From the NCBI GenBank assembly GCA_963847625.1, contig CAWKAR010000003.1:96001-160000 (forward strand): a DNA stretch of 64,000 bases. The letters run 5' to 3'. Both the position numbers and the translations under genes were made by a program. Each line of letters begins with the position of its first letter. The first letter of the stretch is position 1. Positions 16,696 through 49,633 of the stretch are shown here, one piece after another. This DNA is from a candidate division FCPU426 bacterium (GTDB lineage: Bacteria > Oederibacteriota > Muellerivitia > Muellerivitales > Muellerivitaceae). The notes under the pieces were generated by a model. That model ran no database searches and had not been told where the DNA came from. It was given only the letters and a program-made list of their open reading frames with translations.

Positions 16696-16725
16696 TTGTC
16701 CAATACACCTCCCCCAAGTGGACAA
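16696..16725 (+). repeat. Cassette-boundary dyad site A
   Basis: TTGTCCAATAC-ACCTCCCC-CAAGTGGACAA. Confidence 0.8.
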
Positions 16726-16770
16726 GCTAGACCTTGAAACAGAAACCGCACCTGTTATTAACAACAACTT

Positions 16771-17091
16771 TTATGATTTAACCATAATCAACATCATCTT
16801 AAACCGCTCCGTTGCCTTCAGGGCATGCGGCTTGTTAGCCGGCATTAATATCATCTCACCCGCTTTAACATGAGAGGGTTTTCCCTCTATCGTAACTTCC
16901 GCCTTCCCGTCAAAAATATAAACCAATGCGTCAAAAGGGGCCGTATGCTCGCTTAATCCCTGCCCCTTGTCAAAAGCGAAGACGGTCACGGTTCCTTTGT
17001 CCTTGCGTATAATTTCTTTGCTGACAACAGAACCATCTTGATAGTTCACCGATTCAACTAATACTTGGACCTGCCCAATGAAGCTTTCCAT
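16771..17091 (-). CDS. Cupin-domain protein
   Basis: FAFDKGQGLSEHTAPFDA...MPANKPHAL. Confidence 0.9.
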   Translation of the reverse strand: MESFIGQVQVLVESVNYQDGSVVSKEIIRKDKGTVTVFAFDKGQGLSEHTAPFDALVYIFDGKAEVTIEGKPSHVKAGEMILMPANKPHALKATERFKMMLIMVKS

Positions 17092-17119
17092 TATTCCACC
17101 TTAACAAGCCTATATATCG

Positions 17120-17536
17120 CTAACGCCGCCCCCGCTTTGAATTGTCAACAGACCACTTCCCCCCGCCCTTAGCGGCGATAAAGAGAAATACAAAGCAGTA
17201 AATCACCGCCAGCTCGCCGTGGTTGACGATCGGGAAAAAGTTGCTGTCGAACGCGAACTTCCAATGGAATTGAAAATAGGCCACCGCCATCTGACCGCTG
17301 GCCAGAAACGCGGCGAAGGTCGTTCTCAACCCCGCCAAAATCAACAACCCACACACCAATTCAATGATGCCGCCAACCCACAATTGGGACCCCACCGGAG
17401 GTCTCATACTGGGATCGGTCAACAACCCCAAAATCTTTTGGGCTCCATGAAACGAGAACAGAAAACCAGACACGATCCGCAATAAACCGTAGGTTTCCTC
17501 GGAATACTTCAAAAGATGCTGCTCAAATTTACTCAT
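17120..17536 (-). CDS. DoxX-family membrane protein
   Basis: LLRIVSGFLFSFHGAQK...ASGQMAVAYF...GELAVIYCF...GGGKWSVD. Confidence 0.9.
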   Translation of the reverse strand: MSKFEQHLLKYSEETYGLLRIVSGFLFSFHGAQKILGLLTDPSMRPPVGSQLWVGGIIELVCGLLILAGLRTTFAAFLASGQMAVAYFQFHWKFAFDSNFFPIVNHGELAVIYCFVFLFIAAKGGGKWSVDNSKRGRR

Positions 17537-17565
17537 ATATCCGTGCCTCCCTTCATTTTATGCAA

Positions 17566-18039
17566 TTATTCCTCGTCGATTTGTTCTACGAGGTAGTTCT
17601 TCAAATCCATTTGTTTGATTTGGTCCTGCTGAGCTTCAAGCCAGTCGATATGGGCCTCTTCGTCCTTAAGAATCGCTTCGAGGAGATCCCTGGTGCCGTT
17701 GTCCCCTAGTTCGGAAGCCAGTTTTATTGCGGCGTTATATGCCTTAATGGCGCTTTCCTCGGCGGTCCAGTCGTTCTTGATTTGCTCGGGTACGTCGGCG
17801 CCGATATGGATGGCTAGGAGCTTCGAGACGATGGGCACTCCCTCTAGGAATAGGATCCTGCCGATGAGCTTCTCGGCATGTTTCATCTCATCCTTGGCGC
17901 GTTTTTCAGTCATCTTGTGGAGCCGCCCGTAACCCCAGTTGGCGCACATTTCCGAATGAACCATATATTGGTTGACGGCGGTAAGCTCGTCAGATAATTG
18001 TGTGTTCAACGTCTCAATGATCTTTGGATTGCCTTTCAT
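17566..18039 (-). CDS. bfr: Bacterioferritin
   Basis: MKGNPKII..LN..L.DELTAVNQYMVH, DEMKHA, EEAHIDWLE. Confidence 0.95.
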   Translation of the reverse strand: MKGNPKIIETLNTQLSDELTAVNQYMVHSEMCANWGYGRLHKMTEKRAKDEMKHAEKLIGRILFLEGVPIVSKLLAIHIGADVPEQIKNDWTAEESAIKAYNAAIKLASELGDNGTRDLLEAILKDEEAHIDWLEAQQDQIKQMDLKNYLVEQIDEE

Positions 18040-18118
18040 TTCATTTTCTCCTATTAAAAGTTGATTAATAAAGATTCTAACATTTTGATAGACCGAGTTT
18101 AAAATTAAGAAACTTGGT

Positions 18119-18691
18119 TTAGGCCCCGAATCTGGTTCCGGCTTCGGCCCAGTCGATGGCTTTCAGGAAGGCCTGCACGTAATCGGGCTTGGCCAGACCA
18201 TAATCCACCATATAGGCATGCTCGAACACGTCCCCCAAGAGGACCGGCACGGAGCCAGCCGGATATCCCGCATCGTGCTCGTTGATCCAAACGTTGAACA
18301 GTTTTTTCCCGACCGGGTCGTAAGTCAAAGCCGCCCAGCCTATGCCCCGCATGCCGCACACGGCCGCGAAGGCCTTTTTCCAATTATCCACCGAGCCGAA
18401 ATCAGCCTTGATCTGACCAGCTAGTTTTCCCGAGGGCTCGGCTTGCTTCGGGACCTTGGTCATGTTCCCAAAGTAAAGTTCATGCAGTCTCATGCCATTG
18501 AACTCCCATCCAAATCTTCTCTTCAGTTCCGCGAAACCCGGGGTGCCGGCTTCGGCCTTCTCCAAAAGCTCCACGACCTTGTTCACGTTGGTCACATAAC
18601 CTTCATAAAGCTTAAAATGGTTCTTCAACAGAGTTTCGCTGAAGCCGGGTGTCCCGATCAGGCTTGAAAAATCTTTTGGCTGGTAAGGCAT
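18119..18691 (-). CDS. Fe/Mn superoxide dismutase family protein
   Basis: Likely start MPYQPKD at 18691; NHFKLYEGYV, NGMRLHELYF, DVFEHAY. Confidence 0.9.
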   Translation of the reverse strand: MPYQPKDFSSLIGTPGFSETLLKNHFKLYEGYVTNVNKVVELLEKAEAGTPGFAELKRRFGWEFNGMRLHELYFGNMTKVPKQAEPSGKLAGQIKADFGSVDNWKKAFAAVCGMRGIGWAALTYDPVGKKLFNVWINEHDAGYPAGSVPVLLGDVFEHAYMVDYGLAKPDYVQAFLKAIDWAEAGTRFGA

Positions 18692-18955
18692 GTTCCCCTC
18701 CTTGGTTTGTATTTGATACAAGCAAATCATTTCACGTCTCAAACGCGGCGCTTCTCCTTTTTCAAATGAATTTTTATCTAATTATCGTCTTAATCATCCG
18801 ATTCAGTTTCCGCCACCACCGCTTTTAAAACTCCCAAAAAGAGCTCAATGAACCAATCCCCGTCATAACGGAAGCCGGTCAACTTTAACGTCGAGGGCCT
18901 CAGCGATTTTCATTGAGTAAGTCTTTTGGGGGAATAAAAAAGCATGTTCGGTCCC

Positions 18956-19468
18956 TCAGGCATTGGCTTTGGCGGCCTTCAAAGCCTTTTCATAGTCTGG
19001 TTCTTCGGTGACTTCCTTGACGATTTCCACGTGTTTCACCTTGCCATCCTTGCCTATGACGAAAAGGGACCTGGCTTCCAGCCGGAGTTCCTTGATATGG
19101 GTTCCATAAGCATTCCCAAAGCCCATTTCCCGGTGGTCCGACAGGGTCTGGATTTTTATATTCTCGACACCGCAAAAACGGGCCTGTGCGAAGGGCAGGT
19201 CGGCGGTGATGGTTAAAACCTCGATGGTTTTAGGCAGACGCCCGATTTCCAGGTTGAACTTCCGGGTCTGGATGGCACAAACCGGGGTATCTAGGGAAGG
19301 CGCCACCGATAAAATCAGGGTCTTCCCCTTAAATTGGTCCAGGGTCACTTCCTGTAGGCTGTTATTCAGAAGTTTGAAATTGGGGGCCGGGTCCCCCACC
19401 TTGATTTCAGGCCCGATCAAAGTCAACGGCTTTCCCTTAAAAGTGATGACTCCCAAACGTTCTTGCAT
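18956..19468 (-). CDS. tpx: Thiol peroxidase
   Basis: ITFKGKPLTL, PSLDTPVC, DLPFAQARFC, EPDYE. Confidence 0.95.
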   Translation of the reverse strand: MQERLGVITFKGKPLTLIGPEIKVGDPAPNFKLLNNSLQEVTLDQFKGKTLILSVAPSLDTPVCAIQTRKFNLEIGRLPKTIEVLTITADLPFAQARFCGVENIKIQTLSDHREMGFGNAYGTHIKELRLEARSLFVIGKDGKVKHVEIVKEVTEEPDYEKALKAAKANA

Positions 19469-19778
19469 AACATCCTCCCTTTTTATTTCATTCAGATATC
19501 GGCAATGGGCGGTTGCTCCCAGTTTAAAACTAAGCGCATCCGATAACAGCTATCAACCGGAATATCCCAAATTAACTTGCCCGACTACGATGCCAGGTAA
19601 TTTGTTGCTTCATTTTATTGCCCTCAACGGTTGCTTACCCAGATTTTTTTGAGGGAGAGGGCCAAATTCGCTTTATGGATCACATCGCGCTAAAAAAGGA
19701 AGTCTTTCACTCCCCTGATCCTATTTTCCCAAACTAGGATTTTTTTGGAAAAAAAGCAATGTACATCGGCCATACACC

Positions 19779-20441
19779 TTACGCTTTGTCCGGAACGGAT
19801 GGCTTTGACGGCAACTTTATTTCATAAAAATGATCGCAGGCCGGGCATCGAATGACCTTCATGTCGGACGGCAGGTGAACATCGTAAGCCGCCGCGCAAT
19901 GGGAACAGGCGGTTTTTAACCCAGTCGGTCGAGAGGTGGAATAATCAAATAGGGCCATGCCCGTCGCGTCGTTGAAATAGGAACCGACCGCCGCCGAAGA
20001 CAGGAGTTCCATCTGGGCCTCAGGCAAGGCAGCCGACGCCGCCTTGTCGCTCTCATACCCCTCGGCGATCTTCACAACATAATCCATCCAGGCGTTGGTG
20101 ATGTAAAAAGTCACATAGTGTTTTAAACCGGGTATTCGGAGTGAAATCCGCTTTAAGTCCTCGCAATGTTCGAAAACCCAAACATCCTTGTCCTTTACAA
20201 TACCGGGTTCCTCCCAAAACCGGGCCCGAGGATCGGATGGCGGTGGAAGGTCCCGGCATAAAATCAAAAATAAGGCGTCGGAAACCCGAAGTTGCTTCTG
20301 AAAGTCCTCAAAAGCAGCCCTGCCGTCGATTTGCTCGTAGTACTTCCAAACCGTCCCGACCCTGACCGTAAAGAACACCTTCTCAAAAAACGGCTTGAAC
20401 CGTTGGTCCGAGAGGCTGTCAACAATAAGGATTTGACGCAT
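19779..20441 (-). CDS. Hypothetical protein with C-terminal zinc ribbon
   Basis: CSHC...CPAC. Confidence 0.6.
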   Translation of the reverse strand: MRQILIVDSLSDQRFKPFFEKVFFTVRVGTVWKYYEQIDGRAAFEDFQKQLRVSDALFLILCRDLPPPSDPRARFWEEPGIVKDKDVWVFEHCEDLKRISLRIPGLKHYVTFYITNAWMDYVVKIAEGYESDKAASAALPEAQMELLSSAAVGSYFNDATGMALFDYSTSRPTGLKTACSHCAAAYDVHLPSDMKVIRCPACDHFYEIKLPSKPSVPDKA

Positions 20442-20507
20442 GGTAAACCATTCCTTTTTCCAGTTACTGACTTATTTTTTGAAACCTATAAAACGGTCCC
20501 AGTTCCC

Positions 20508-20771
20508 TTAATCTTCGGCGATCAGGACAAACTCGGTCCTTGGTGCATGGCAGGAAGGGCAAGAATCTGAAAACTTTCCACCCCTCGGCATGAGTTCGCC
20601 GCATTGCAAACATTTCCAAAGGATTTCGGTTTGACCGGTCAGGGCGTCGTAATGGTATTCCCCTGCCGGAGCAGGGGGGGTATGCGATGGGGTGCTGGCA
20701 TGTGGAATTTTCCTTTTTTGGGGTGACATTGTAACAGACTCCTGGGCCCTAACCGGTCGTATTTTTCCCAT
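20508..20771 (-). CDS. Small rubredoxin-like/zinc-ribbon protein (start uncertain)
   Basis: WKCLQCG...CPSCHAPRTEF. Confidence 0.65.
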   Translation of the reverse strand: MGKIRPVRAQESVTMSPQKRKIPHASTPSHTPPAPAGEYHYDALTGQTEILWKCLQCGELMPRGGKFSDSCPSCHAPRTEFVLIAED

Positions 20772-20899
20772 CCCTATTCAAAATGGAAGCTTTATCCCCG
20801 CTTTTCCCTGTCCCTTCACTTTAACTCCATTTTTTTTAATCCCCGTCGCAGTCTTGTAATAAAGCTAGGTTGTCCCTAAATGAATAGAAAGGGGATGCC

Positions 20900-21328
20900 A
20901 TGGAAACAGAAGTTCATGTCAATCAAAGGTCCGTCACGGCATTGCTGATGTTCGACGGGTTTTGCAACATGTGCGGCAGGATCGCCCGGTTCATTATGCG
21001 CCGGGACAAGCACCAGAAATTCATTTTTATCACCCTTCAATCCGGGAGGGCGAAGGAAATTTTACGGATGAATGGCCTGAACGCCTTGGACATGGGTTCC
21101 TTCGTGCTGGTCCAGGACGGCCGGGCCCGCCTTAAGTCGGACGCGATCCTGGGCGTTTTGGAGGAAATGGGAGGCTGGCTGGACTGGATGCGTGTTTTCA
21201 GGCTGGTCCCCGGCCCGTTCCGGGACTGGGTTTACGACCTCATGGCACGCAACCGTTACCGTCTCTTCGGAAAAAGCAACCAATGCATGAGGCCCAATCC
21301 GGAATTCAAAGACCGGTTTCCGGAATAA
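20900..21328 (+). CDS. DCC1-like thiol-disulfide oxidoreductase
   Basis: FDGFCNMC, RDWVYDLMARNRYRLFGK. Confidence 0.9.
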   Translation: METEVHVNQRSVTALLMFDGFCNMCGRIARFIMRRDKHQKFIFITLQSGRAKEILRMNGLNALDMGSFVLVQDGRARLKSDAILGVLEEMGGWLDWMRVFRLVPGPFRDWVYDLMARNRYRLFGKSNQCMRPNPEFKDRFPE

Positions 21329-21389
21329 GGTTCGGAGGTTTGTCGCTTCAAAGGGGCTTTTGGAAAATCCCAGGACCGTGTTCTTCCCT

Positions 21390-22004
21390 TTATGGATTCA
21401 TGCAACCTTGGGCCTTTGACACGACCAAGCGCAGGGACCGCAAGACCGGCCTGCCGCCGGGTAGTTCGCTGGCCATCTCGTAGCGCGGTACGGTGGGTTC
21501 CACCGCGATCGACCATGCGTCGATGCCTCCGGTCATGGACTTGACGTTCGTGAAACCGTGGCCCGCAAAATAAGCGGCGGCATCCAGGCTTCTCTCCCCC
21601 CGGTGGCAGTAAAAGACAATGGGTGTCTTCTTGGGCCAACCGATGATTTCCCTCGCCAAATCCTCGGTGATGAGTACCGCGCCGGGAATTCTGGCCATTT
21701 CCCACTCCTCGGGGGTCCTCACATCGATCAGACGCGGTGGGTGGAGGCTCATCAGGGCCTTCGCCACGTTTATGGGGCTTTCCTGGATGCGTCCTTCATT
21801 TTTTTCGGCTTCCTTGATGAAGCGGATGACCTCGTCGAGGTCGGACAGACCGCGCTTACTCACCACGTCTTCCAGGATGTCCTGCGGCTCGTAACCGCAG
21901 CTGTGGCATCCGCCGATGTGGTAGCGCCGGAAGAGCGCGCGCTGGACGCTCGGATAGGCCTCCAGGACCTCCTGCATGGTACTTCGTTTCGAAATGGTAG
22001 CCAT
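21390..22004 (-). CDS. Rhodanese-domain protein with N-terminal Cys-containing domain
   Basis: YHIGGCHSCG; LIDVRTPEEW...FYCHRGERS...MTGGIDAWS. Confidence 0.85.
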   Translation of the reverse strand: MATISKRSTMQEVLEAYPSVQRALFRRYHIGGCHSCGYEPQDILEDVVSKRGLSDLDEVIRFIKEAEKNEGRIQESPINVAKALMSLHPPRLIDVRTPEEWEMARIPGAVLITEDLAREIIGWPKKTPIVFYCHRGERSLDAAAYFAGHGFTNVKSMTGGIDAWSIAVEPTVPRYEMASELPGGRPVLRSLRLVVSKAQGCMNP

Positions 22005-22100
22005 TGGTTTCTCCCCTTTTTTACCGCTGAATTCCGTACTAAATCGTTATAAAAAATCTACGCCGGCCCTCCCTCGGAAATCAAGAGGTCATCCACGCGT

Positions 22101-23036
22101 TTATCCCTTCGCCTCCTCGAAAAGCCAGGTGGAAAGGTATCGTTCGCCCGTATCCGGTACGATGACGACAATCGTCTTACCCTTGTTTTCGGGCCGCTTG
22201 GCAACTTGAATCGCCGCCCAAACGGCCGCGCCGCAGGAAATGCCGGCCAGGATTCCTTCCTTACGGGCCAGTTGCCGCGCGATCTCCCCGGCGTTCTCGT
22301 GGCTGACCCGGATGACCTCATCGATGATTTCTCGGTTCAGGATAGCCGGGACAAAACCCGCCCCGAGGCCCTGGATTTTGTGGGGTGCCGGCGCCCCGCC
22401 CGACAAAACAGGTGAGGCGTCGGGTTCCACCGCGATAGCCTTGAAGGAAGGTTTGCGCTTCTTGATAACTTCCGCCACTCCCGTGATAGTGCCGCCGGTT
22501 CCCACCCCGGAGATGAGGATGTCCACCTTGCCGTCGGTGTCCGCCCAAATTTCCTCCGCCGTGGTTTTGCGGTGGATTTCGGGGTTCGCGGGATTGTTGA
22601 ATTGCTGGGGGATGAAGCTGTTGGGGGTTTCTTTGGCCAGTTCCTCGGCCTTCGCGATCGCCCCTTTCATTCCCTTCGGCCCCTCGGTCAAGATCAGTTC
22701 GGCGCCAAAAATCTTAAGGAGCTGGCGTCTCTCCAAACTCATGGTTTCCGGCATGGTGAGGATGAGCTTGTACCCCTTGGCGGCGGCCACGAACGCCAGG
22801 GCTATCCCGGTGTTGCCGCTGGTGGGTTCAATGATGACGGTGTCTTTCTTGAGAACCCCGCGCTTCTCGGCATCCTCGATCATTGCCAGGCCAATCCGGT
22901 CCTTCACGCTGGACAAGGGATTGAAGGATTCCAGCTTGGCCAGTACGGTCGCCACCACCCCTTCGGTAACCCGGTTCAACTGCACCAGGGGAGTGCGGCC
23001 GATTGTCTTGGTTATATCGTCGTATATTTTAGCCAT
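22101..23036 (-). CDS. cysK: Cysteine synthase A
   Basis: [50 protein letters not shown]. Confidence 0.97.
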
Positions 23037-23329
23037 GTTTCACCTCATGCTTTCCCGAGCGCTTGCTCGATGTCGGCGGGGGAACCGGCTAAAGGGATGG
23101 TCCCCGCGAAGTGTCGGTCTCCCGGATTAACTCCCGGGGCCGCTCCCGGGTTTTCCAGTGGACTGGGATACCGGTTATGGTGGGTGGTTAATGGGTCCGG
23201 TTTGTCCGGTCCCGATTAAAGGAACAACCATTGAAACACATAAATAATCTGGTCATAACGCCCCAAATATCAAGGGCCCCCGGAAACGCTTGCTCCGGGC
23301 CGTCCGGAGGGGGTATGGATTTAATTTCC

Positions 23330-24001: not shown

Positions 24002-24106
24002 ATCATTCCCCTTAACCTTCTTAAACTTTTAATTCAGGGTAATACTATTGATAGGTTTTTATGGAAAGCAAGGCAAGATCTGGGATTTATTTTTTTGGTT
24101 GGAGGA

Positions 24107-24136
24107 TCATCCAATGCGGGTCCCCGTTGTGGACGA
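24107..24136 (+). repeat. Cassette-boundary dyad site B
   Basis: TCATCCAATGC-GGGTCCCC-GTTGTGGACGA. Confidence 0.75.
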
Positions 24137-24209
24137 CGAAATATTTTTGATAAGAATTGCCGGACTTGCCTTTCTGATTGTTCATGGAATTTTGGCGAAA
24201 ACGCGGAGG

Positions 24210-24743: not shown

Positions 24744-24829
24744 TATTTCTTATCGTAGTACCCCACCATGTAAATGATCCGATTGACCGGTTTATCCTAA
24801 ATCGCAGACTAACGGACATGGTGCAATAG

Positions 24830-32019: not shown

Positions 32020-32042
32020 ATTAATTTCGAAAGGGGGGAATT

Positions 32043-40760: not shown

Positions 40761-40795
40761 AAATGGCATCTTATTTGAATCCTAACTTTAGGAAA

Positions 40796-42691: not shown

Positions 42692-42706
42692 GGCTTTAAA
42701 GACTCC

Positions 42707-43840
42707 TCATGGTTGTCCCAGGGTGGAATAACCCCAGAGCGTGGTGATCAAGAGGCCGGCCAATACCAGGAGCCCGAAGTAAGTGGTCTTCCGGGCCCGC
42801 GCGCCGGCCTTGCTTTTCACGTCATAAAGCGGCACCAGAACCCAAAGCACCAGCCCCAGGTTGAAAAGAACGAGCCCGAAAAGCTCGCCCGCCTCGCCGG
42901 AAACCACCTTCCCGATGATTCGCAGTACTTGGAAGGAGCTCATGAAATACCACTCGGGGTGAATGTCCATGGGGGTGGGTTTTATCGGGTCGGACTGCTC
43001 CCCCAAGCCCCAAGGGTACACGGCCGCGAGAAACGCTAGGATATTCAGGGCCAGTAACCACATGCCCAGGTCCTTCATCGCGAAGTTCGGAAAAAACGGC
43101 ACGCTGCGGCGCTGGGATTCGGGTTTCGCCTCCTCGCTTTCCGGCATGGACACGCCGTGCTTCTGGATCAACGCGAGGTGGAAAAGGAGGATGGGTATGA
43201 AAAGGGCCGGCAGGACCACCACGTGAAGGGCGAAAAACCTGGAGACCGTGAAGGAACTGATCTCGGGGCCGCCACGCACCAGATCGGAAATCCAGGGGCC
43301 CAGGACGGGGATCACCGCCGGGATGCTCAAGCCCACCTTCGTGGCGAAGAAGGAAAGCACATCCATGGGCAGCAGGTATCCGCTGAAACCAAAAACCAAG
43401 GCCAGCCCCAGGAGCGCCAAGCCGCTCCACCAGCCGAACTCGCGTGGGGCGCGGTAGGCCCTCAGGAAAAAAACCGAGAACATGTGGATGAAGGCCGATC
43501 CGATCATGAGGTTGGCCGACCAGGCGTGCACCGAGCGGATGAACCACCCGAACTTGATGTGGTAGGTGATCTGCCGGACGGACTCGTAGGCGTCGTCGCC
43601 GGGCCGGTAATAAAGCAGCAAAAGCACGCCCGTGAAGCACATGACGATGAAGAAAAAAAGCGTGATGCCCCCCCAGTAGTACCAGAAGGAGTATCGGTGT
43701 TCCGGAACGGTTTTTTCCGAGGCCATCTTGGCCAAGTCGGTTATCCCCAGCCTCTCATCCACCCACCGATAGACGAATGAGAAGAGGTTGTCCCGACCGG
43801 AGCGCTTAGGTCCGGCTGATAGTGATTTTTCCATTGGCAA
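42707..43840 (-). CDS. Cytochrome b/b6 (second copy)
   Basis: IRSVHAWSAN, GYLLP, RFFALHV, HPEWYF. Confidence 0.93.
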   Translation of the reverse strand: MPMEKSLSAGPKRSGRDNLFSFVYRWVDERLGITDLAKMASEKTVPEHRYSFWYYWGGITLFFFIVMCFTGVLLLLYYRPGDDAYESVRQITYHIKFGWFIRSVHAWSANLMIGSAFIHMFSVFFLRAYRAPREFGWWSGLALLGLALVFGFSGYLLPMDVLSFFATKVGLSIPAVIPVLGPWISDLVRGGPEISSFTVSRFFALHVVVLPALFIPILLFHLALIQKHGVSMPESEEAKPESQRRSVPFFPNFAMKDLGMWLLALNILAFLAAVYPWGLGEQSDPIKPTPMDIHPEWYFMSSFQVLRIIGKVVSGEAGELFGLVLFNLGLVLWVLVPLYDVKSKAGARARKTTYFGLLVLAGLLITTLWGYSTLGQP

Positions 43841-44315
43841 TACTCACTTTGTACCCGGTCAGCGGCTTGGGCGGCGGGCCGGAGATGTTGGCTCCCGTCC
43901 GGGGGTCGTAGACCCCCCCGTGGCAGGGGCAGTAAATGATTTTTTTATCGGGCTGGTAGGCGGGGGTGCACCCGAGATGGGTGCAGACGGCGCTCAAGGC
44001 CGTCCAAGTATCGTCGTCCTGGTGGATGAGCATGGCGGGTCTGGAGGCGAACTTGAACATCATGGCGGAGTTTTTGGGCAATGAAAGGGCGTTGTCCAAA
44101 GTCACTTCTTTTGCCGGCACCTCCATGGCGGCGTCTTCCACCGGCGAGGCCAAATAGCGGTAGATGGGATAACCAATGAATCCCGCGTAAACGGCGCCCA
44201 CGGCACCCGCGGCTATCTTCAGGAAGGTCCGCCTTTCCATCGGCCCCAGCAAACCGTTGGAATCGGAATCGTCCTTGGTCGGGCCGGCGGGCGGGTTTTT
44301 ACTTTCCTCAGGCAT
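43806..44315 (-). CDS. Rieske 2Fe-2S protein (second copy, Tat substrate)
   Basis: Probable start MPEESK at 44315; ERRTFLK; CTHLGC, CPCHGG. Confidence 0.93.
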   Translation of the reverse strand: MPEESKNPPAGPTKDDSDSNGLLGPMERRTFLKIAAGAVGAVYAGFIGYPIYRYLASPVEDAAMEVPAKEVTLDNALSLPKNSAMMFKFASRPAMLIHQDDDTWTALSAVCTHLGCTPAYQPDKKIIYCPCHGGVYDPRTGANISGPPPKPLTGYKVSIANGKITISRT

Positions 44316-45426
44316 AGTTTTCCTCCACCGGCTTGGCACGGCGCAGCACCATGAGAATCCAGCCCATGATGCCCAGGCCCACGATAAAGAAACCAAAGAA
44401 CAGTCCAACCACTAGCCAATTGGTGTTAACCGGGCTGATCCATATGTCAAAACCCTTGTGGGCGAGCGTGATGTCCCTCACGCCGTCGCGCAAAATCACG
44501 TAGGCGGCCACCGAAAAAAAAACGGGCAGGGCGGTTAAAAGCCCCCTGGACAAAGACCAGTCCCTCGGCCGCAACACCAGGCCCAGGGCCGCTAAAACAC
44601 TCAGGCCCAGGCATCCCAACCAACCGTAAAGCAAAGCCCGGTAAAACCCGGAACTTTGAAGGGCTTCCTGGACAAAATCGGGCTGGGCGTGAAAAGCCCA
44701 CAAACCCACTGCGGCCAGCACCGGCAAGGCGGCCAGTGCGATAACGCCGCTCCAGAACCGGAAGAAGACCTTCACTTCTTCTTCCAACGCGTTTTTGCCG
44801 GTGTAAAGAGCCGATCCTAAAGCACCTAGGGCGATAGAACCGGCCATCATGACGGCGAAGCGAGGCCACTTGGTCGGGTCAAAGGGAGGCATATGGATGC
44901 CGGAAACCGCGGCGCCGTACATGCCCGGCCAAACCTCGGGACGGAGCATCAAGGTCATGTTCGTGGAGAAAACCTGGGCCACGTACATCAGAAGGGCCAG
45001 GGCCAAAAGGCCCCAGGACCACCAGTTTTTTTTATGCACGGCGTGGCCAGCCATGTGGTAAAGGATGAAATAAGCCGTGATGATGAACAAGAGAACGCTG
45101 ATCCAGTAAGCGCCGATCAGGATGCTGCTGGTATAGAACGCCCGGCCATAAAGCGCCTGGGTAAACAAGAGGGGCGGAATGCCCAGGTTGATGACGAAGG
45201 TCGTTACGATGGGCAATCGGGCCGCCACCACGCCCGAGGAGGAGATCGCCCGGGGTGACTTGAGAAAATAACCGATGGCGTTCCAAAGGATGGCCAAGAA
45301 TAAGCCGCCCAGCAGGAGGTGCAGAAAAGCGAAGTGCAGGGAGAGCGTGAGGTTGTGGAGGACCTTGAAAAGCCAAATCGGCGCGGGGAGGGGGATCGGA
45401 TCGAGCGATGGAAAATAGAAAGTCAT
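44308..45426 (-). CDS. Polytopic membrane protein, probable partner of the bd-like subunit
   Basis: About 9-10 TM helices with N-terminal His residues (LHNLTLSLHFAFLH), NLGIPPLLFTQ; first gene of the operon. Confidence 0.65.
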   Translation of the reverse strand: MTFYFPSLDPIPLPAPIWLFKVLHNLTLSLHFAFLHLLLGGLFLAILWNAIGYFLKSPRAISSSGVVAARLPIVTTFVINLGIPPLLFTQALYGRAFYTSSILIGAYWISVLLFIITAYFILYHMAGHAVHKKNWWSWGLLALALLMYVAQVFSTNMTLMLRPEVWPGMYGAAVSGIHMPPFDPTKWPRFAVMMAGSIALGALGSALYTGKNALEEEVKVFFRFWSGVIALAALPVLAAVGLWAFHAQPDFVQEALQSSGFYRALLYGWLGCLGLSVLAALGLVLRPRDWSLSRGLLTALPVFFSVAAYVILRDGVRDITLAHKGFDIWISPVNTNWLVVGLFFGFFIVGLGIMGWILMVLRRAKPVEENYA

Positions 45427-45767
45427 GGGACCTCTTTTTTGAGCAATGGAAGGTACGCGCCTAGGAGCCCAAATCCGCGTTAAAGCATAATGTCAAACAC
45501 GGTTTGAGTTCAAGCATTACCTGTTTTCTTGTTTTTCAGGCAAAAACGAAACCAGCGTCTCGCGTACCCCGGCCGAGGAGATGAAAGGCGGCGGCATTAA
45601 CCCAGCTTGGCCAGCCTGATTAACGCGGTCAATTGGGAATAATATTTTTGAAAGATAAATTTCATATTCCTCCCGTGATAGGCAGGTTTCCTCACCGCCG
45701 ACCCTCCCCATGCGGTTCCTGATCCCCTTAAATTTAATGATGGTTCAACCTTGCTGAGAACAGCGTG

Positions 45768-46310
45768 TTAATGGATCGCGGCGCTAGGGACGGCTTTCCA
45801 GATTTCCTGCGCTTTAGCCGGAAGCGAGTCCATATGCTTGAGGAAAAGCGCCAGCTTCCAGGCTTGGTCGTCGGTCAAGGCCTTGCTGAAACCCGGCATG
45901 CCGGTTAAGCGAATGCCGTGCTTGACCTTCCAGAAAGTAACCCCTTCCGGGTCGTCTTCCACTCCATCTGTCGCGAGTTGGGGGGCTTGTTGGTATAGCC
46001 CCATCGCGATGTTGGAAGGTTTTCCGTCGGAAGCGCCATGGCAGACGGCGCAGTTTGCGGAATAGAGTTTTATCCCCTCCATCAGATTTTTCCCGTTAAA
46101 TTCAACGGGATTCGGGCCTTTGGGCGCTTCGCGTTGAATGGAAGCATGCAGGGATTTCCAGGCCATCCATTTCTCAAGAGCCGGGGGTTTGCCGTCAGCG
46201 TTGACCGGCATGAACCCGGAGATAATGAAGAAGTACCCCCCCATGGCTACACAGGCCAGGGTGATGAGTATTCCCCATAAAATCCCTTTTCCCATAAACG
46301 CTGCCTCCAT
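45768..46310 (-). CDS. Membrane-anchored monoheme cytochrome c
   Basis: CAVCH, FWKVKHGIRLTGMPGF. Confidence 0.9.
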   Translation of the reverse strand: MEAAFMGKGILWGILITLACVAMGGYFFIISGFMPVNADGKPPALEKWMAWKSLHASIQREAPKGPNPVEFNGKNLMEGIKLYSANCAVCHGASDGKPSNIAMGLYQQAPQLATDGVEDDPEGVTFWKVKHGIRLTGMPGFSKALTDDQAWKLALFLKHMDSLPAKAQEIWKAVPSAAIH

Positions 46311-46389: not shown

Positions 46390-46419
46390 TTGTCCACGAA
46401 GGGTCCCCTTCGTGGACAA
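46390..46419 (+). repeat. Cassette-boundary dyad site F (perfect dyad)
   Basis: TTGTCCACGAAGGG-TC-CCCTTCGTGGACAA: a 14-bp perfect inverted repeat around TC. Confidence 0.9.
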
Positions 46420-46431: not shown

Positions 46432-46863
46432 TCAAAACCCCAACTTTTTAAGAAGTTGCGCCGTGGTATACCACTCAATCCCGATTCCCTCAAAATCTCC
46501 GTCGTTAGACCATAAGGGTATTTTCAATTCGAGGGACAAAGCCAATAAATCTATGTCATCCGGGTCTCTTTTTCCAATTTTCCTCCGGGCTAATGCAAAA
46601 GAACCGTGATAATCCTTTAGGCCGTATTCCCTGACAGCCAATAGTTGAAATTGGCTTTCCAGGAGTTCCTCGGCTATGCGATATTTCACGGCCATGATTG
46701 GAAGGTATTCACGCACTTCTTTGATATTCAATGCCGTGGATATGACTTCAAGGTGGGAATGAGTAAAAACTTTGAGGGCAGCCCTGCCGGTCGCGGCGGA
46801 AAGAAGGACGTTAGCGTCCGCGGCGATTTGCCCGGCGGGTTTTTCTCCATGTTTCAAAGTCAT
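46432..46863 (-). CDS. PIN-domain (VapC-like) toxin
   Basis: ADANVLLSA...RDPDDIDLLAL...LWSNDGDF; start uncertain. Confidence 0.88.
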   Translation of the reverse strand: MTLKHGEKPAGQIAADANVLLSAATGRAALKVFTHSHLEVISTALNIKEVREYLPIMAVKYRIAEELLESQFQLLAVREYGLKDYHGSFALARRKIGKRDPDDIDLLALSLELKIPLWSNDGDFEGIGIEWYTTAQLLKKLGF

Positions 46864-47107
46864 GTGTAACCGTCCGCTCACTAACGCCTGATTTTTTGAG
46901 ATGGTTGGAAATGGCGGAGCCAAGGTTCGTTAAAAGTTCCCTCCGCAATTCCAGGGGAAGTTCCTGGGACTTGGACATAGGTACCAATAGGCTGGCGACT
47001 TTCCCGTGTTTGGTCACAAACACGAGATCGTCCCCGCTCAGAAACTCCGGCGCGTGATCCCTAAATTCCCTTACCCCTGCGACTCGCATAAAACCACCTT
47101 CCTGCAA
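46811..47107 (-). CDS. Phd/YefM-like antitoxin
   Basis: MRVAGVREFRDH...VFVTKHGKVASLLVP; overlaps the PIN gene. Confidence 0.8.
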   Translation of the reverse strand: MQEGGFMRVAGVREFRDHAPEFLSGDDLVFVTKHGKVASLLVPMSKSQELPLELRRELLTNLGSAISNHLKKSGVSERTVTHDFETWRKTRRANRRGR

Positions 47108-47185: not shown

Positions 47186-47240
47186 GTGTCCACGATCCCT
47201 GCCGCTCGCTGCGGTGCGAGCGGATCCCCGTCGCGGACAG
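47186..47240 (+). repeat. Cassette-boundary site G with 25-nt hairpin insert
   Basis: GTGTCCACGAT-[CCCTGCCGCTCGCTGCGGTGCGAGC]-GGATCCCC-GTCGCGGACAG. Confidence 0.75.
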
Positions 47241-47245: not shown

Positions 47246-47746
47246 TCACATTAAAATTCGAAGAATCTTCTCAACTACATCTTTCGAGGAACCCGTCCCC
47301 ACTTCCATCTTGTGTTCGTTCTCAAGTGTGACCCTGGCTTTCAGAACCTGATTAATACGGACGGAACTTTCAAAGTCATGATTGCCGCTGTCCCTCATTG
47401 GGTCAATTATTCGCCGCTTCAATTCGTTAGAGTCATCCAGGAAAAAGGTGAGCATCACGCAGGAAGCTTTTGGAAATAATCCTTTAAGCCGAATCATCCG
47501 TTCTGGTTGAACGTCCACCACCAGGATATTCTTGAAGCCGTATTTAAGATACCGTTCCAATGTGAACGCGAGTATTTCCTCGGATAACCGTTCTTCCTCC
47601 TGCGATGCATCCCGCCAACCTTCGTGAAGGTGCGCACTCCGAATCCAATCAAACTCCAAGCATGGCGATTGCAGTTTTTCTTTGAGAAGTCTACTGAGGG
47701 TTGTTTTACCCACTCCGGGTGCACCCACGATAAAAATGATGTCCAT
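47246..47746 (-). CDS. P-loop NTPase/nucleotide kinase-like (AAA_33-type) protein
   Basis: MDIIFIVGAPGVGKTT; ATG at 47746 has an AGGGAG RBS (the track's GTG start lies inside site H). Confidence 0.8.
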   Translation of the reverse strand: MDIIFIVGAPGVGKTTLSRLLKEKLQSPCLEFDWIRSAHLHEGWRDASQEEERLSEEILAFTLERYLKYGFKNILVVDVQPERMIRLKGLFPKASCVMLTFFLDDSNELKRRIIDPMRDSGNHDFESSVRINQVLKARVTLENEHKMEVGTGSSKDVVEKILRILM

Positions 47747-47789
47747 CAATTGCTCCCTAATTTCAGACCTCTCAATCGTCGCTCTTTTT

Positions 47790-47819
47790 CTGTCCACGAC
47801 GGGTCCCCAGAGTGGACAG
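47790..47819 (+). repeat. Cassette-boundary dyad site H
   Basis: CTGTCCACGAC-GGGTCCCC-AGAGTGGACAG. Confidence 0.9.
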
Positions 47820-47897
47820 ACATGTGCCGATCAATTGGCTTATTTTACCTCTTACTGAGCATATAAAAAAATTGTCACGAATAAGCTGTTTTACTGT

Positions 47898-48952
47898 CCC
47901 GAGTTCCATAAGTAAGTGCAACACTTAGTGTCTGAAGAAGGCCGCATGAATAGGATATGCGGCTATGAAAAAGAAATACAAGCATTTAAGCGTTGAAGAA
48001 AGAGATCATTTATCCGTCTTGAAAGGAAAGGGTCTTAGCCTTCGAGCAATTTCACGCGCCTTGAAGAGGTCTCCTTCCACCCTCTCCAGGGAACTCAAGC
48101 GCAATGCTCCCCCTATCCGTTCTGGTTATTATCTTTCTCATCGAGCCCATCAACGGTATGTTGACCGCAACCAACAACGAGCACGCCGTTTACGCCTGAA
48201 AACAAAACGAATTCGTGCCTACGTCCGTCGTCAATTGAAACGAGGCTGGTCTCCAGAACTCATTTCAGGTCGATTAGGTCACCTACGGCCTAAGCAAACC
48301 ATTGGTCCTGAAGCTATCTATCAGTGGGTTTATGCTGAAGCCACTGAGCTGATTCCTTGCCTAGTTCGACACCACCGGCGACGATTCTCATTTGGCCATA
48401 GCCGTAAGCACGCCAAAAACCATATCCCAGGCCGTGTTTCCATCGATAAGCGCTCCGAGATCGCCAATCAACGCAAGCAATTCGGCCATTGGGAAACCGA
48501 CACCATGGTCTCTCGTCAGAGTAAAGTTGCTATGCGGGCTCTCGTCGAGCGTCAAAGCCGTTTTTCCAAGTTGGGAAAGCTCAAACGAAAGACCGCTTGC
48601 CAAATGAGTCATAGCCTCAACCGCGCTTTATGCCGCTTCCCTCAAGACGCCCGCCTGAGTCTGACCTATGACAACGGAACCGAAAACACCAACCACTTGG
48701 AAACCAACCACGTGCTTGGTACAAAATCCTTTTTCTGCGCCCCTTTCCACAGTTGGGAAAAAGGTACGGTGGAAAATACTATCGGTCTTGTCCGCCGCCA
48801 TTTGCCTAAAAAGACTGATCTTGCTAAAGTGTCCTTCAAAGAATTCAGGACCATAGAAAGATGGCTCAATAACAGGCCCAGGAAATGTTTGGGCTTTAAA
48901 ACTCCGGCGGAAGTCTTCCGGCGAAGTGTTGCACTTACTCCGTGAATTCGGC
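47898..48952 (+). mobile_element. IS30-family insertion sequence
   Basis: Imperfect 29-bp terminal IRs sharing AGTAAGTGCAACACTT; TGT flanks both ends (probable target duplication). Confidence 0.85.
47965..48945 (+). CDS. IS30-family DDE transposase
   Basis: HLSVEER, PSTLSRELKRN, GHWETDT, TYDNGTE, SWEKGTVEN, NNRPRKCLGFKTP. Confidence 0.95.
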   Translation: MKKKYKHLSVEERDHLSVLKGKGLSLRAISRALKRSPSTLSRELKRNAPPIRSGYYLSHRAHQRYVDRNQQRARRLRLKTKRIRAYVRRQLKRGWSPELISGRLGHLRPKQTIGPEAIYQWVYAEATELIPCLVRHHRRRFSFGHSRKHAKNHIPGRVSIDKRSEIANQRKQFGHWETDTMVSRQSKVAMRALVERQSRFSKLGKLKRKTACQMSHSLNRALCRFPQDARLSLTYDNGTENTNHLETNHVLGTKSFFCAPFHSWEKGTVENTIGLVRRHLPKKTDLAKVSFKEFRTIERWLNNRPRKCLGFKTPAEVFRRSVALTP

Positions 48953-49033
48953 TGTTTATTTAACACCCAACTAATGGTTTCTGAATGAGCCCCAACCCCT
49001 TGACTCTTTATTTGCATATGCAATAATATATAT

Positions 49034-49333
49034 ATGTTTGATATCCAATTTTCGACCGGTGTCTGGAATGACCTGAAGCCCATCCCCATACGGGGCCAAC
49101 GGATCATCCTCGATGCGATCGAAGAACAACTCACACATCAGCCCGCGACAAAAACAAGGAACCGAAAGATACTATTGAACCTGGTGCCTCCCTGGCAAAA
49201 TATGCCGCCAATATGGGAATTAAGGGTTGATGATTACCGTGTTTTTTACGATGTAGCTGAGGAGGAACAAACGGTGTATGTGCGGACCATCCGTTACAAA
49301 CCGCCTCACAGCCGAACGGAGGATATTTTATGA
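49034..49333 (+). CDS. RelE/ParE-family toxin
   Basis: WELRVDDYRVFYDV; ATGA-coupled to the next gene. Confidence 0.85.
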   Translation: MFDIQFSTGVWNDLKPIPIRGQRIILDAIEEQLTHQPATKTRNRKILLNLVPPWQNMPPIWELRVDDYRVFYDVAEEEQTVYVRTIRYKPPHSRTEDIL

Positions 49334-49578
49334 AAACAGTCAATGTCCGGGATCTTCAGAAAAAGATAAAAGAATTCGTCGATGCCTCCCAAAAGGACCG
49401 TGTGGTATTAACCCGCCATGGCAAGCCGTCAGCCATCCTGGTCGGGGTTGAGGGTGAAGACTGGGAAACGGTTGTGCAGGAAACCAACGCCGAATTTTGG
49501 AATTTAATCCAATCCCGCAGAAAGCAAAAAACCATCCCACTTGCCGTGATGAAAACCCGCTTGAAATTGAAAAAATAG
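49330..49578 (+). CDS. Phd/YefM-family antitoxin
   Basis: MKTVNVRDLQKKI...VVLTRHGKPSAILV. Confidence 0.88.
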   Translation: MKTVNVRDLQKKIKEFVDASQKDRVVLTRHGKPSAILVGVEGEDWETVVQETNAEFWNLIQSRRKQKTIPLAVMKTRLKLKK

Positions 49579-49633
49579 TTGTCCAATCCCACTGCCATTT
49601 GCTGCGGTGCAAATGGCTCCCCGGGTTGGACTC
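49579..49633 (+). repeat. Terminal cassette-boundary site I with 25-nt hairpin insert; tRNA 3'-end-like on the minus strand
   Basis: TTGTCCAATCC-[CACTGCCATTTGCTGCGGTGCAAAT]-GGCTCCCC-GGGTTGGACTC. Confidence 0.75.

What the first reader, a model, noticed from the sequence alone, without database searches (positions are those of the whole stretch)
16696..49633. Integron-like array: nine co-oriented 30-bp dyad sites cut 33 kb of cargo into eight gene modules
Seen in sequence: one motif (11-bp arm, 8-bp core, 11-bp arm; roughly TTGTCCAnnnn-nnnTCCCC-nnnGTGGACA) recurs in the same orientation at 16696, 24107, 26060, 29025, 31059, 46390, 47186, 47790 and 49579. Every copy lies between genes, and I found none outside this interval. 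The segments between sites are functionally coherent: redox/sulfur stress (7.4 kb), hemerythrin plus cyclase, NHL lipoprotein, nitroreductase plus hemA, a 15-kb cytochrome cluster, a PIN-Phd TA pair, a single kinase, and a RelE-Phd TA pair. Several sites abut gene ends (0, 5 and 12 bp from stops at I, G and F), and most cargo is on the minus strand. The sites are not integron attC (no RYYYAAC/GTTRRRY ends) and do not resemble dif. Inference: these are recombination sites of a cassette-accretion system that stacks single- and multi-gene modules beside an ICE-like element.
Basis: partly seen in the sequence, partly recalled or inferred. Interest (0 to 1): 0.95.

Follow-up and report, generated by a model that had tools for sequence, protein, structure and literature searches.

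The report
Integrase-less gene cassettes bounded by palindromes
A 30-base palindromic DNA site that follows gene after gene marks the borders of swappable gene cassettes throughout this uncultured peat-soil bacterium and its relatives, much as in an integron, but with a different site and no integron enzyme in sight.

Summary
All nine sites are at the stated coordinates and far exceed chance (9 matches against 0.55 expected). The consensus is tTGTCCAc-nnn-GGGTCCCC-gtc-GTGGACAa. G and I are about 55-bp long forms with a nested hairpin. E is only a half-site.

The motif is not special to this window. About 70 copies lie in co-oriented clusters across the genome. It occurs in 21 of 24 genomes of the same family, in 2 of 16 genomes outside it, and in many peat and soil metagenome contigs.

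Sites sit just after stop codons and run in the direction of the genes. Spacing is cassette-sized (median 725 bp), and 101 of 101 neighbouring pairs are co-oriented. Cargo is toxin-antitoxin pairs, GNAT, DinB, glyoxalase and hypothetical genes.

Comparisons between genomes show the same cassettes, aligned from site to site, in different arrays. A whole 21-kb array is missing from the matching locus of a sister genome.

I found no integron integrase, and RAYT and serine recombinases do not track the sites. The agent is unidentified; the order's single divergent Xer-like recombinase is a weak candidate. The cassette reading is largely supported, but the window's 33 kb is not one array. Earlier notes from this scan describe similar integrase-less arrays on other DNA.

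The parts
16696..16725 (+). Site A, short form, with intact outer arms and an unpaired middle. It is followed by a 60-nt tail that recurs at C21:61888.
   Evidence: Fold -6.2 kcal/mol, z -4.1.
24107..24136 (+). Site B, a decayed short form (left arm ATCCA, right arm ends GGACG).
   Evidence: No better fold than shuffles, z 0.20.
26060..26089 (+). Site C, a decayed short form (GTCAA left arm, TCCCT core).
29025..29054 (+). Site D, short form with the right arm mutated (GTGAAC).
   Evidence: Fold z 0.83.
31059..31088 (+). Site E, a half-site: only CTCCCCAGCGTGGACAA is present and the left arm is missing.
   Evidence: Fold z 0.81.
46390..46419 (+). Site F, a perfect short form, 12 bp after the stop of the PIN gene.
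   Evidence: R1 E 1.7e-10. Fold -14.4 kcal/mol, z -7.25.
47186..47240 (+). Site G, long form with a nested 8-bp hairpin, 5 bp after the stop of the P-loop gene.
47790..47819 (+). Site H, short form.
49579..49633 (+). Site I, long form. Bases 49614-49633 are the reverse complement of the last 20 nt of this genome's tRNA-Asn. It runs into a second repeat family (tail to about 49671).
46432..47107 (-). Cassette F-G: PIN_2 toxin plus a small upstream gene (a toxin-antitoxin pair).
47246..47749 (-). Cassette G-H: a single P-loop (AAA_18/AAA_33) kinase-like gene.
47898..48952 (+). IS30-like insertion sequence (HTH_38 plus rve), 79 bp right of site H. The genome holds about 45 copies at 98.5-100% identity.
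49034..49578 (+). ParE-Phd toxin-antitoxin pair, inverted relative to the other cassettes. Its stop abuts site I.
16771..31008 (-). Modules A-E: redox/sulfur genes, hemerythrin plus cyclase, an NHL protein, and nitroreductase plus hemA. Several are second copies of genes found elsewhere in the genome.
   Evidence: hemA is 94% identical to C19, the cyclase 94.5% to C12 and the hemerythrin 84% to C50.
31585..46310 (.). Block of cytochrome bc, cytochrome c, TatA/TatC, CcsA/ResB and bd-oxidase-like genes. This is ordinary chromosome, not a cassette.
   Evidence: Partly syntenic in G001. Homologs in G002 at 64-76% identity.
1..16400 (-). ICE-like element: a tyrosine integrase next to tRNA-Leu(CAG) just left of the window, a TraG-like ATPase, TrbL/VirB6 and AbiEi.
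14639..15840 (-). Left copy of a 1202-bp perfect inverted repeat (AbiEi/AbiEii genes).
49920..51121 (+). Right copy of the 1202-bp perfect inverted repeat.

Best explanation
The motif is the boundary site of a lineage-wide gene-cassette system that works like an integron but is not one.

Shown. Each cassette is one gene or a small operon, often a toxin-antitoxin pair with its own operator. It is followed 1-50 nt after the stop codon by a site of about 30 bp (about 55 bp in the long form). Read in the gene's direction the site is TTGTCCAC-nnn-GGGGACCC-nnn-GTGGACAA. Cassettes are stacked head to tail in many arrays across the chromosome, and the same cassettes recur in different arrays and genera.

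Inferred. Cassettes are excised and inserted by site-specific recombination between these sites, catalysed by an enzyme encoded elsewhere in the genome.

Speculative. The enzyme may be a tyrosine recombinase, and the order's single divergent Xer-type recombinase is the only universal candidate I found. The conserved gene-proximal 19 nt (GGGTCCCCGTCGTGGACAA on the + strand) would be the strong binding arm plus core. The loosely conserved far arm would be the weak arm. The long form, whose inner hairpin varies in sequence but keeps its structure, suggests that one strand is recognised in folded form, as for attC.

In the window, F-I form a small live array. A-E are decaying sites around domesticated extra gene copies.
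For: Real and non-random: 9 matches against 0.55 expected in the window; 101 against 28-35 genome-wide.

Anatomy: 58 of 67 sites with a called neighbour abut the 3' end of a gene in the expected orientation, at a median of 48.5 nt, and 64 of 68 run against the local gene-strand majority in my TCCCC orientation, that is with the genes. Arrays read site-gene(s)-site in G000, G002, G018 and a 193-kb metagenome contig. Among 230 unique metagenome sites, 101 of 101 neighbouring pairs less than 5 kb apart are co-oriented, with median spacing 725 bp.

Cargo typical of cassette arrays: MazF/RHH, PIN/FitA, HigBA, TacAT, BrnTA, ParE/Phd, GNAT, glyoxalase, DinB, HAD and many genes with no family.

Mobility:
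- Four cassettes shared by G000 and G002 are 79-84% identical in unrelated contexts, with homology ending at or near the sites. Core genes of the two genomes are only 64-76% identical.
- An hflX cassette is about 91% identical in three lineages with different neighbours.
- A 21.4-kb array in G002 is absent from the orthologous locus of same-genus G018. That empty locus is a stop codon plus an ordinary terminator.
- Single cassettes of the G002 array align site to site with cassettes in other G018 arrays.

Constraint: the site sequence is kept across genera (21 of 24 family genomes, 1-140 matches each), while unused copies decay by point mutation.

Long form: all 9 inner-hairpin pairs keep pairing through changes on one or both sides in 8 sequences.
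Against: - No recombinase is linked to any array. In G000 none lies within 15 kb of an array, and none flanks the arrays examined in G002 or the metagenome contig.
- No circle, empty-site or site-to-site junction was observed. The only sequencing runs found were low-depth contigs.
- The variable positions of the flanking sites are not inherited with the cassette between G000 and G002, so the crossover point cannot be placed.
- The short form shows no significant covariation.
- Three of the seven window sites I folded (A, B, D, E, F, G and I; C and H were not folded) fold no better than shuffles.
- Sites also flank ordinary genes such as hflX, katG and glycosidases.
- The empty locus in G018 has no site, so the start of an array needs another mechanism.
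- G017 appears to carry the Xer-like gene, but R1 finds no site there. In the nearly complete G004 all sites lie in one small array. The site is therefore not simply that recombinase's dif.
Confidence: 0.55

Rival explanations
1. The site is a REP-like interspersed palindrome, a selfish or structural intergenic repeat sitting at gene 3' ends. Cassettes look mobile only because variable islands are rich in such repeats and because 26-30-bp repeats support occasional homologous or illegitimate recombination and gene conversion.
For: The element is genome-wide, intergenic, palindromic and lineage-specific, with tens to about 140 copies per genome. It also flanks ordinary genes. Subfamilies and composite forms exist. 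The site's variable positions are not inherited with cassettes, as concerted evolution would give. No dedicated recombinase is linked.
Against: Y1/RAYT transposases do not track the sites: G019 (140 matches), G018 (94), G023 (71) and G021 (17) have no PF01797 hit. None of 101 neighbouring pairs is inverted, so there is no REPIN-type doublet. Placement after almost every gene in arrays of unrelated accessory genes, site-to-site homology of cassettes in different arrays, and a whole array missing from a sister genome are not typical of REPs as I recall them.
Confidence: 0.2
2. The element acts in RNA. It would be a 3'-UTR hairpin that ends, stabilises or processes transcripts, or a binding site for a conserved RNA-binding protein. 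Its GGGGA sits near the hairpin tip. Cassettes would carry it because they circulate within this lineage.
For: The element has a strict sense orientation and lies 1-50 nt after stop codons. Intact copies form strong hairpins (F -14.4 kcal/mol, z -7.25). The long form has a covarying inner stem.
Against: There is no U-tract after the hairpin in either direction (position table), so it is not a canonical intrinsic terminator. The conserved part is one half plus the core, not the pairing: the left inner arm is free, and complementarity is 2.13 of 4 positions against 2.00 when shuffled. Half-sites persist. No Rfam family matches. An RNA role alone does not explain cassette shuffling.
Confidence: 0.15
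3. The sites are attachment-site scars, tRNA-derived direct repeats left by tandem accretion of small integrative elements. The ICE-type tyrosine integrases, present as eight paralogs in this genome, would mobilise these elements in trans.
For: Site I's right half equals the last 20 nt of tRNA-Asn, 20 of 20, and the consensus matches 13 of 20. A subset of sites is followed by a tail resembling a tRNA-Leu anticodon arm. The ICE-type integrase family is found in 20 of 24 family genomes. Outside the family at 50% identity or more it occurs only in G025, G029 and G033, and two of those are the only outside genomes with a site hit.
Against: No tRNA gene lies within 1.5 kb of any catalogued site in G000, and none lies beside arrays in about 170 other loci. 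These integrases sit next to tRNA-Leu, tRNA-Arg and tRNA-Asp, not next to sites. G022 has 70 site matches but only 1 integrase copy, and G017 has an intact integrase and no site.
Confidence: 0.1

Closest known systems
Integrons: sedentary chromosomal integrons and CALINs (attC clusters lacking an integrase)
   Same: The arrays are co-oriented single-gene or small-operon cassettes, each with an imperfect-palindromic site just after the stop codon. Spacing is about 0.5-1 kb. Cargo is rich in toxin-antitoxin pairs, GNAT, glyoxalase and DinB-type genes. Cassettes are shuffled between arrays and genomes. Site sequence is homogeneous within a lineage, as I recall for Vibrio VCRs. The long form has conserved outer arms, an unpaired middle and an inner hairpin that varies in sequence but keeps its structure. 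A group II intron sits beside a site in G002; I recall that group IIC-attC introns target attC.
   Different: No IntI was found in this genome or in 40 relatives. There is no single platform with attI and Pc; instead dozens of small arrays are spread over the chromosome. The common site is 30 bp, shorter than any attC I know of. The consensus arms are GTCCAC/GTGGAC rather than RYYYAAC/GTTRRRY. Many cassettes carry their own promoter or operator.
dif modules of Acinetobacter plasmids (pdif sites, XerC/XerD)
   Same: Discrete gene modules, very often toxin-antitoxin pairs, are bounded by short recombinase-core-type sites made of an arm, a spacer and an arm. One arm is much better conserved than the other, and no dedicated recombinase is encoded nearby. 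I read passages and Table 1 of PMC13141974.
   Different: pdif sites are 11-6-11 and alternate in orientation (C/D, D/C). They lie on Rep_3 plasmids and use the host XerC/XerD. Here the site reads as 11-8-11, all neighbours are co-oriented (101 of 101) and the arrays are chromosomal. This lineage has no XerC or XerD over the curated cut-offs, only one divergent Xer-like protein. A 25-nt hairpin is tolerated in the middle of the site.
REP/BIME elements and their RAYT transposases
   Same: Short, lineage-specific, imperfect palindromes in intergenic DNA, mostly downstream of genes, in tens to hundreds of copies.
   Different: There is no co-occurrence with Y1/RAYT genes and no inverted doublets. 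The sites form regular arrays that delimit unrelated accessory genes which move as units.
Simple tyrosine-recombinase core sites (loxP, FRT, and the dif of single-recombinase Xer systems such as XerS, XerH and XerA; recalled)
   Same: Two inverted arms flank an asymmetric 8-bp centre that gives the site a direction. Identical arms fit a single recombinase species.
   Different: There are tens to more than a hundred copies per chromosome. The inner arm positions are free. Long forms carry an insertion in the centre that a duplex core site should not tolerate.

Membership tests
Integron / CALIN | IntI-type tyrosine integrase (NCBIfam TIGR02249, cut-off 265 bits) | tested here: not met
   No match over the cut-off in G000 (best 45 bits) or in any of 41 genomes including G000 (best about 92 bits, all outside the family or in tandem recombinase pairs). 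The two family hits, in G006 and G015, have no sites nearby.
Integron / CALIN | attC sites: R'' RYYYAAC ... R' GTTRRRY, roughly 57-141 bp, with a folded bottom strand and extrahelical bases (recalled definition) | tested here: inconclusive
   The consensus arms are GTCCAC/GTGGAC and the short form is 30 bp. Rare copies fit (site I GTTGGAC; C13:112721 GTCCAAC). The long form has attC-like architecture with compensatory changes. No attC covariance model was available to score them.
Integron / CALIN | Co-oriented cassettes, each an ORF plus a site at its 3' end, in arrays | tested here: met
Integron / CALIN | Cassettes move as units between arrays | tested here: met
   Comparative evidence only: site-to-site homology in different arrays and genera, and an array present or absent between sister genomes. 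No direct junctions or circles were seen.
dif modules (pdif, XerC/XerD) | Site of an 11-bp XerC arm, a 6-bp spacer and an 11-bp XerD arm, related to the host dif | tested here: not met
   The site reads as 11-8-11 with near-identical outer arms. It has no sequence likeness to the pdif sites in Table 1 of PMC13141974. The host dif is unknown.
dif modules (pdif, XerC/XerD) | Neighbouring sites alternate in orientation | tested here: not met
   101 of 101 neighbouring pairs are co-oriented. All nine window sites are on one strand.
dif modules (pdif, XerC/XerD) | Host XerC and XerD carry out the recombination | tested here: not met
   No family genome has a XerD match over the cut-off. Each has one hit of about 145-155 bits. 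The G000 protein scores 161 bits for XerC and 146 bits for XerD against cut-offs of 335 and 330. Activity was not tested.
REP / RAYT | Co-occurrence with a Y1 (RAYT) transposase | tested here: not met
   PF01797 was not found in G018, G019, G021 or G023, which hold 17-140 site matches, and is present in G008 and G017, which hold none.
Intrinsic terminator | GC-rich hairpin followed by a U-tract | tested here: not met
   There is no T-run on either side that would follow the hairpin in a transcript. The gene-sense downstream flank is A-rich. B, D and E do not fold.
tRNA-derived att repeats of tandem integrative elements | The repeat equals a tRNA 3' end, and the array starts at that tRNA gene | tested here: not met
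   Site I matches tRNA-Asn 20 of 20, but the consensus matches only 13 of 20. No tRNA lies within 1.5 kb of any G000 site or beside arrays in other loci.

The most novel reading that the evidence does not exclude
This would be a 'distributed integron' without an integron integrase. An entire bacterial order that has replaced XerC/XerD by one divergent Xer-type recombinase would use that housekeeping enzyme, or another unlinked one, to capture, stack and exchange gene cassettes. The exchange would occur at 30-55-bp sites recognised partly as folded single strands, in dozens of arrays all over the chromosome. That would be an independent invention of the integron principle.
Probability: 0.3. Interest if true: 0.9.

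Novelty: new variant of a known kind. Interest (0 to 1): 0.8.

Why it matters
Integrons are the textbook device for capturing and shuffling genes. They are defined by one integrase family and are thought to be confined to certain phyla. Here the same cassette logic appears in an uncultured soil and peat lineage with a different site, no IntI and no cis-linked recombinase, spread over many chromosomal loci.

If recombination at these sites is confirmed, cassette capture has evolved more than once and can run on an unlinked, possibly housekeeping, recombinase. Integrase-centred tools would then miss a large reservoir of mobile cassettes in environmental bacteria.

The short, well-defined site gives a direct handle. 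It can serve as a PCR or probe target to harvest cassettes from metagenomes, and as a substrate to fish for the enzyme.

Earlier notes of this scan report comparable integrase-less arrays in other lineages. The phenomenon may therefore be general rather than a curiosity.

Tried and rejected
- Rfam at gathering thresholds on the window gave 0 families.
- My genome-contig scan used a pattern with one N too many.
- The viral-contig scan found 1 locus only, so there is no sign of a phage link (not followed up).
- Sequencing runs: no RNA holder is listed. Four peat-metagenome DNA runs from one study hold 6-24% of the sampled words. Laid on window 28000-47890 they gave only contigs of 150-380 bp at low depth. 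The listed joints have sides of 20-29 letters and do not lie at sites. This gives no evidence for or against excision.
- Short-form hairpin covariation is not significant: 63 of 500 shuffles reach the observed score.
- Integron integrase: none found.
- RAYT/Y1 transposases show no correlation with the sites.
- Serine recombinases occur in only 8 of 24 family genomes.
- ICE-type integrases target tRNA genes and are not adjacent to sites.
- I searched for a direct repeat of tRNA-Leu that would mark the ICE's far end and found none.
- Metagenome contigs of the same species as G000, which could have shown strain-level indels: none among 156 loci. The only hit was the hflX region at 90.7%.
- Same-genus G001 is too diverged and rearranged (77-86% identity) for clean empty-site comparisons in the window.
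- Literature: searches for the motif words, for integrase-less cassette systems and for Xer/dif-like chromosomal cassette arrays found only classical integron and Acinetobacter dif-module papers and nothing on this motif or lineage.
- Earlier scan notes by sequence or by place gave nothing for this window.

Full report
**1. The observation**

Reading the nine coordinates shows the motif at each place on the + strand.

- F (46390-46419) is a perfect 30-bp palindrome around an asymmetric centre, TTGTCCACGAAGGG-TC-CCCTTCGTGGACAA.
- A and H are good copies.
- B, C and D carry 1-2 changes in the arms or core.
- E has only the right half.
- G and I are about 55 bp. They have the same outer arms with a nested hairpin inserted in the middle.

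The half-motif TCCCCNNNGTGGACA, allowing one mismatch, occurs 9 times in the window against 0.55 expected; 0 of 100 shuffles reach 9. The ninth (63476, - strand) lies in coding sequence. Rfam has no family for it.

**2. Not a local feature**

The window is C3:96001-160000 of a 4.43-Mb, 63-contig genome.

- The half-motif has 101 hits genome-wide against 28-35 in three second-order Markov random genomes.
- A covariance model built from 39 short copies (A1/R1) finds 77 matches at E<=1 in the genome. Palindromic sites are counted on both strands.
- My regex catalogue lists 57 intergenic short forms, 8 long forms and 19 intergenic half-sites. Of these, 68 pass a stricter filter.
- The sites cluster (C13 6.8-10.8 kb and 109-114 kb, C19 110-119 kb, C55 0.2-3 kb, C61 36-38 kb, C63 80-84 kb) and nearly always share one orientation within a contig.
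- Among 41 genomes (G000 plus 40 relatives), R1 matches 21 of 24 other genomes of the same family, with 1 to 140 matches each. Only 2 of 16 genomes outside the family match, one match each.
- Earlier scan notes call the organism an uncultured soil/peat bacterium of a candidate phylum. I could not name it because I wasted the genome-contig scan on a mis-spaced pattern.

**3. Anatomy**

Position relative to genes (G000):

- In the orientation that reads TCCCC, 64 of 68 sites run against the local gene-strand majority.
- 58 of 67 sites have the 3' end of a gene abutting their right side, at a median of 48.5 nt and often 1-30 nt.
- Read in the gene's direction, therefore, each gene is followed by TTGTCCAC-nnn-GGGGACCC-nnn-GTGGACAA.

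Position table from 222 metagenome short copies. The anchor positions of the seed pattern are biased; the N positions are not.

- The gene-proximal block GGG-TCCCC-GTCG-TGGACAA is strongly conserved.
- The far arm keeps only TTGTCCA.
- Across 346 unique copies the right inner arm is GTCG in 55%, while the left inner arm is nearly free. The two are only marginally more complementary than shuffled pairs: 2.13 against 2.00 of 4 positions.

Structure:

- The short form shows no significant covariation.
- B, D and E fold no better than shuffles, while F, I, A and G do.
- In the long form, by contrast, the 9-bp inner hairpin keeps pairing through changes in all nine pairs among 8 copies. The flanking unpaired CCCACTG and CTCCCC are conserved.
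- There is no U-tract after the hairpin in either reading direction.

**4. Arrays and cargo**

Arrays read site, gene(s), site in G000, G002, G018 and a 193-kb metagenome contig with about 18 sites. In the metagenome loci, 101 of 101 neighbouring pairs less than 5 kb apart are co-oriented, with a median gap of 725 bp and quartiles of 458 and 1137 bp.

Cargo includes:

- many toxin-antitoxin pairs (MazF/RHH, PIN/FitA, HigB/HTH, TacA/TacT, BrnT/BrnA, ParE/Phd, RelE/MqsA);
- GNAT, glyoxalase, DinB, HAD, NHL and LOG genes;
- genes with no family;
- some large genes (KatG, GH43, alpha-galactosidase, hflX).

**5. Do the modules move?**

- Four cassettes are shared by G000 and G002, which are different genera, at 79-84% DNA identity in unrelated surroundings. 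Homology starts at the stop codon or site on one side and runs up to the site on the other. Core genes of the same two genomes are only 64-76% identical.
- An hflX cassette is about 91% identical in G000, G002 and a metagenome contig, each time with different neighbours.
- The largest G002 array lies in a 21.4-kb segment that is missing from the orthologous locus of same-genus G018, whose flanks are 78-85% identical. The empty locus is a stop codon followed by an ordinary terminator, without a site.
- Individual cassettes of that G002 array align, exactly from site to site, with cassettes in other G018 arrays. Two neighbours in one G018 array match cassettes on different G002 contigs.
- A site that has lost its neighbours' support decays by point mutation: the TacAT 3' site in G002 and B-E in the window.

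It is comparative evidence only. The sequencing runs available gave no usable junctions.

**6. The window re-read**

- Window 1-16.4 kb is an ICE-like element whose integrase lies beside tRNA-Leu(CAG).
- F-I (46.4-49.6 kb) is a small live array: a PIN toxin-antitoxin pair, a P-loop gene, then an IS30-like insertion (about 45 genomic copies) and an inverted ParE-Phd pair.
- A-E flank second copies of ordinary genes. hemA is 94% identical to a copy on C19, and the cyclase 94.5% to one on C12. Their sites are decayed.
- The 15-kb cytochrome/Tat/Ccs block is core chromosome.
- The whole 34 kb lies between two copies of a 1202-bp perfect inverted repeat. This may be real or an assembly join.

**7. 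Which enzyme?**

- No integron integrase was found in G000 or in 40 relatives. The two family hits are tandem recombinase pairs with no sites nearby.
- Y1/RAYT genes do not track the sites.
- Serine recombinases occur in 8 of 24 family genomes.
- An eight-member ICE-type integrase family is found in 20 of 24 family genomes. Outside the family it occurs mainly in the two genomes that also have a site hit. However, its members sit beside tRNA genes, not beside sites.
- The family and its sister family lack XerC/XerD over the cut-offs. Each genome has one divergent Xer-like protein of about 145-160 bits; the other families of the phylum have the usual pair at 270-368 bits. This is a clade-level coincidence, a single evolutionary event, and not a test.
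- Against the Xer-like candidate: the gene is not next to arrays. G017 seems to have it without any site, and in near-complete G004 all sites lie in one small array, so the site is not simply its dif.
- No recombinase flanks the arrays examined.

**8. Comparison with known systems**

The logic is that of an integron or CALIN. The defining integrase is absent and the canonical attC is not met.

The site resembles a recombinase core (arm, 8-bp asymmetric centre, arm) with one strong and one weak arm, as in pdif sites (Table 1 and passages of PMC13141974). dif modules, however, alternate in orientation, are plasmid-borne and use XerC/XerD.

REP/RAYT and intrinsic terminators fail their defining features here.

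The long form's architecture, and the recalled precedents of IntI and of XerCD acting on the folded CTX phage strand, make recognition of a folded strand plausible. This is inference.

Literature searches found nothing on this motif or on such a system in this lineage. For most papers I saw only search listings and abstract starts. Earlier notes of this scan describe similar palindrome-bounded, integrase-less or Xer-like-associated arrays in other lineages. They are unchecked AI notes. I used them as a lead, tested adjacency of a Xer-like gene here, and found none.

**9. Verdict**

This is a real, lineage-wide, integron-like cassette system with a new kind of site and no identified recombinase. 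Its local framing, one 33-kb array beside an ICE and confined to this interval, does not.

Noticed in passing
window 14639-15840 and 49920-51121: A 1202-bp inverted repeat, 100% identical and covering AbiEi/AbiEii genes, brackets the whole 34-kb interval that holds all nine sites. It may be a real invertible segment or an assembly join in this MAG.
   Followed up: partly
window 47898-48952: An IS30-like element (HTH_38 plus rve, 1055 bp) is present in about 45 copies at 98.5-100% identity across the genome and at about 90% in G002. Three copies lie 24-79 bp from a site (window site H, C38:56804/56828, C26:65898/65974).
   Followed up: partly
window 49614-49671; also C13:75265, C60:122086, C33:45211, C45:10447, C39:239761, C31:57654: A second repeat family of about 48 nt (TCCCCGGGYTGGAC plus a conserved tail ...CCCTTCGTTTCACTCAGGGCAAGCTCAC) occurs at 7 loci. 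In site I its first 20 nt are the reverse complement of the 3' end of tRNA-Asn (C4:10228-10302).
   Followed up: partly
window 16725-16790 and C21:61888-61950; C21:61734-61887: The 60 nt right of site A recur after a half-site on C21. Several sites are followed by AGCTAGAACYCTG, which resembles the anticodon arm of tRNA-Leu. On C27:123451 such a site abuts a tRNA 3' fragment.
   Followed up: partly
family-wide; G000 C60:99799-100836: The whole family and its sister family lack XerC/XerD over the curated cut-offs and carry a single divergent Xer-like recombinase of 345-384 aa. The other families of the phylum have the usual XerC plus XerD pair.
   Followed up: partly
L012:3092-4408 (G000 C55), L036:9147-10466 (G002), L097:1139-2455 (metagenome): An hflX GTPase gene flanked by sites is about 91% identical at the DNA level across genera whose core genes are 64-76% identical. 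It looks like a horizontally exchanged hflX cassette, possibly an accessory paralog.
   Followed up: partly
L038:6172-8372 (G002 C2:1476-1478 kb): A group II intron reverse transcriptase/maturase gene lies directly after a site and a half-site inside an array.
   Followed up: no
L012:2270-3010 (G000 C55): A GC-rich non-coding insert of about 770 nt lies between the RelE/MqsA cassette and its upstream site. It is absent from the G002 copy of the cassette, and its nature is unknown.
   Followed up: no
L013:2345-3316 (G000 C61) and G002 C2:163863-164303: In both genomes a truncated-looking serine recombinase gene (Resolvase plus Recombinase domains, 288-329 aa) ends a few bases before a site.
   Followed up: no
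G000 C20:38768-42101: Three tyrosine recombinase genes lie in tandem (331, 317 and 463 aa). One scores weakly as a gamma-mobile-trio recombinase (GmtY), which suggests a recombinase-trio mobile element.
   Followed up: no
window 29737-31008, 24830-25936, 24210-24722: The window's hemA, adenylate cyclase and hemerythrin genes are second copies of genes on C19, C12 and C50 (94%, 94.5% and 84% identity). Homology ends within about 10 nt of the ORF ends.
   Followed up: partly
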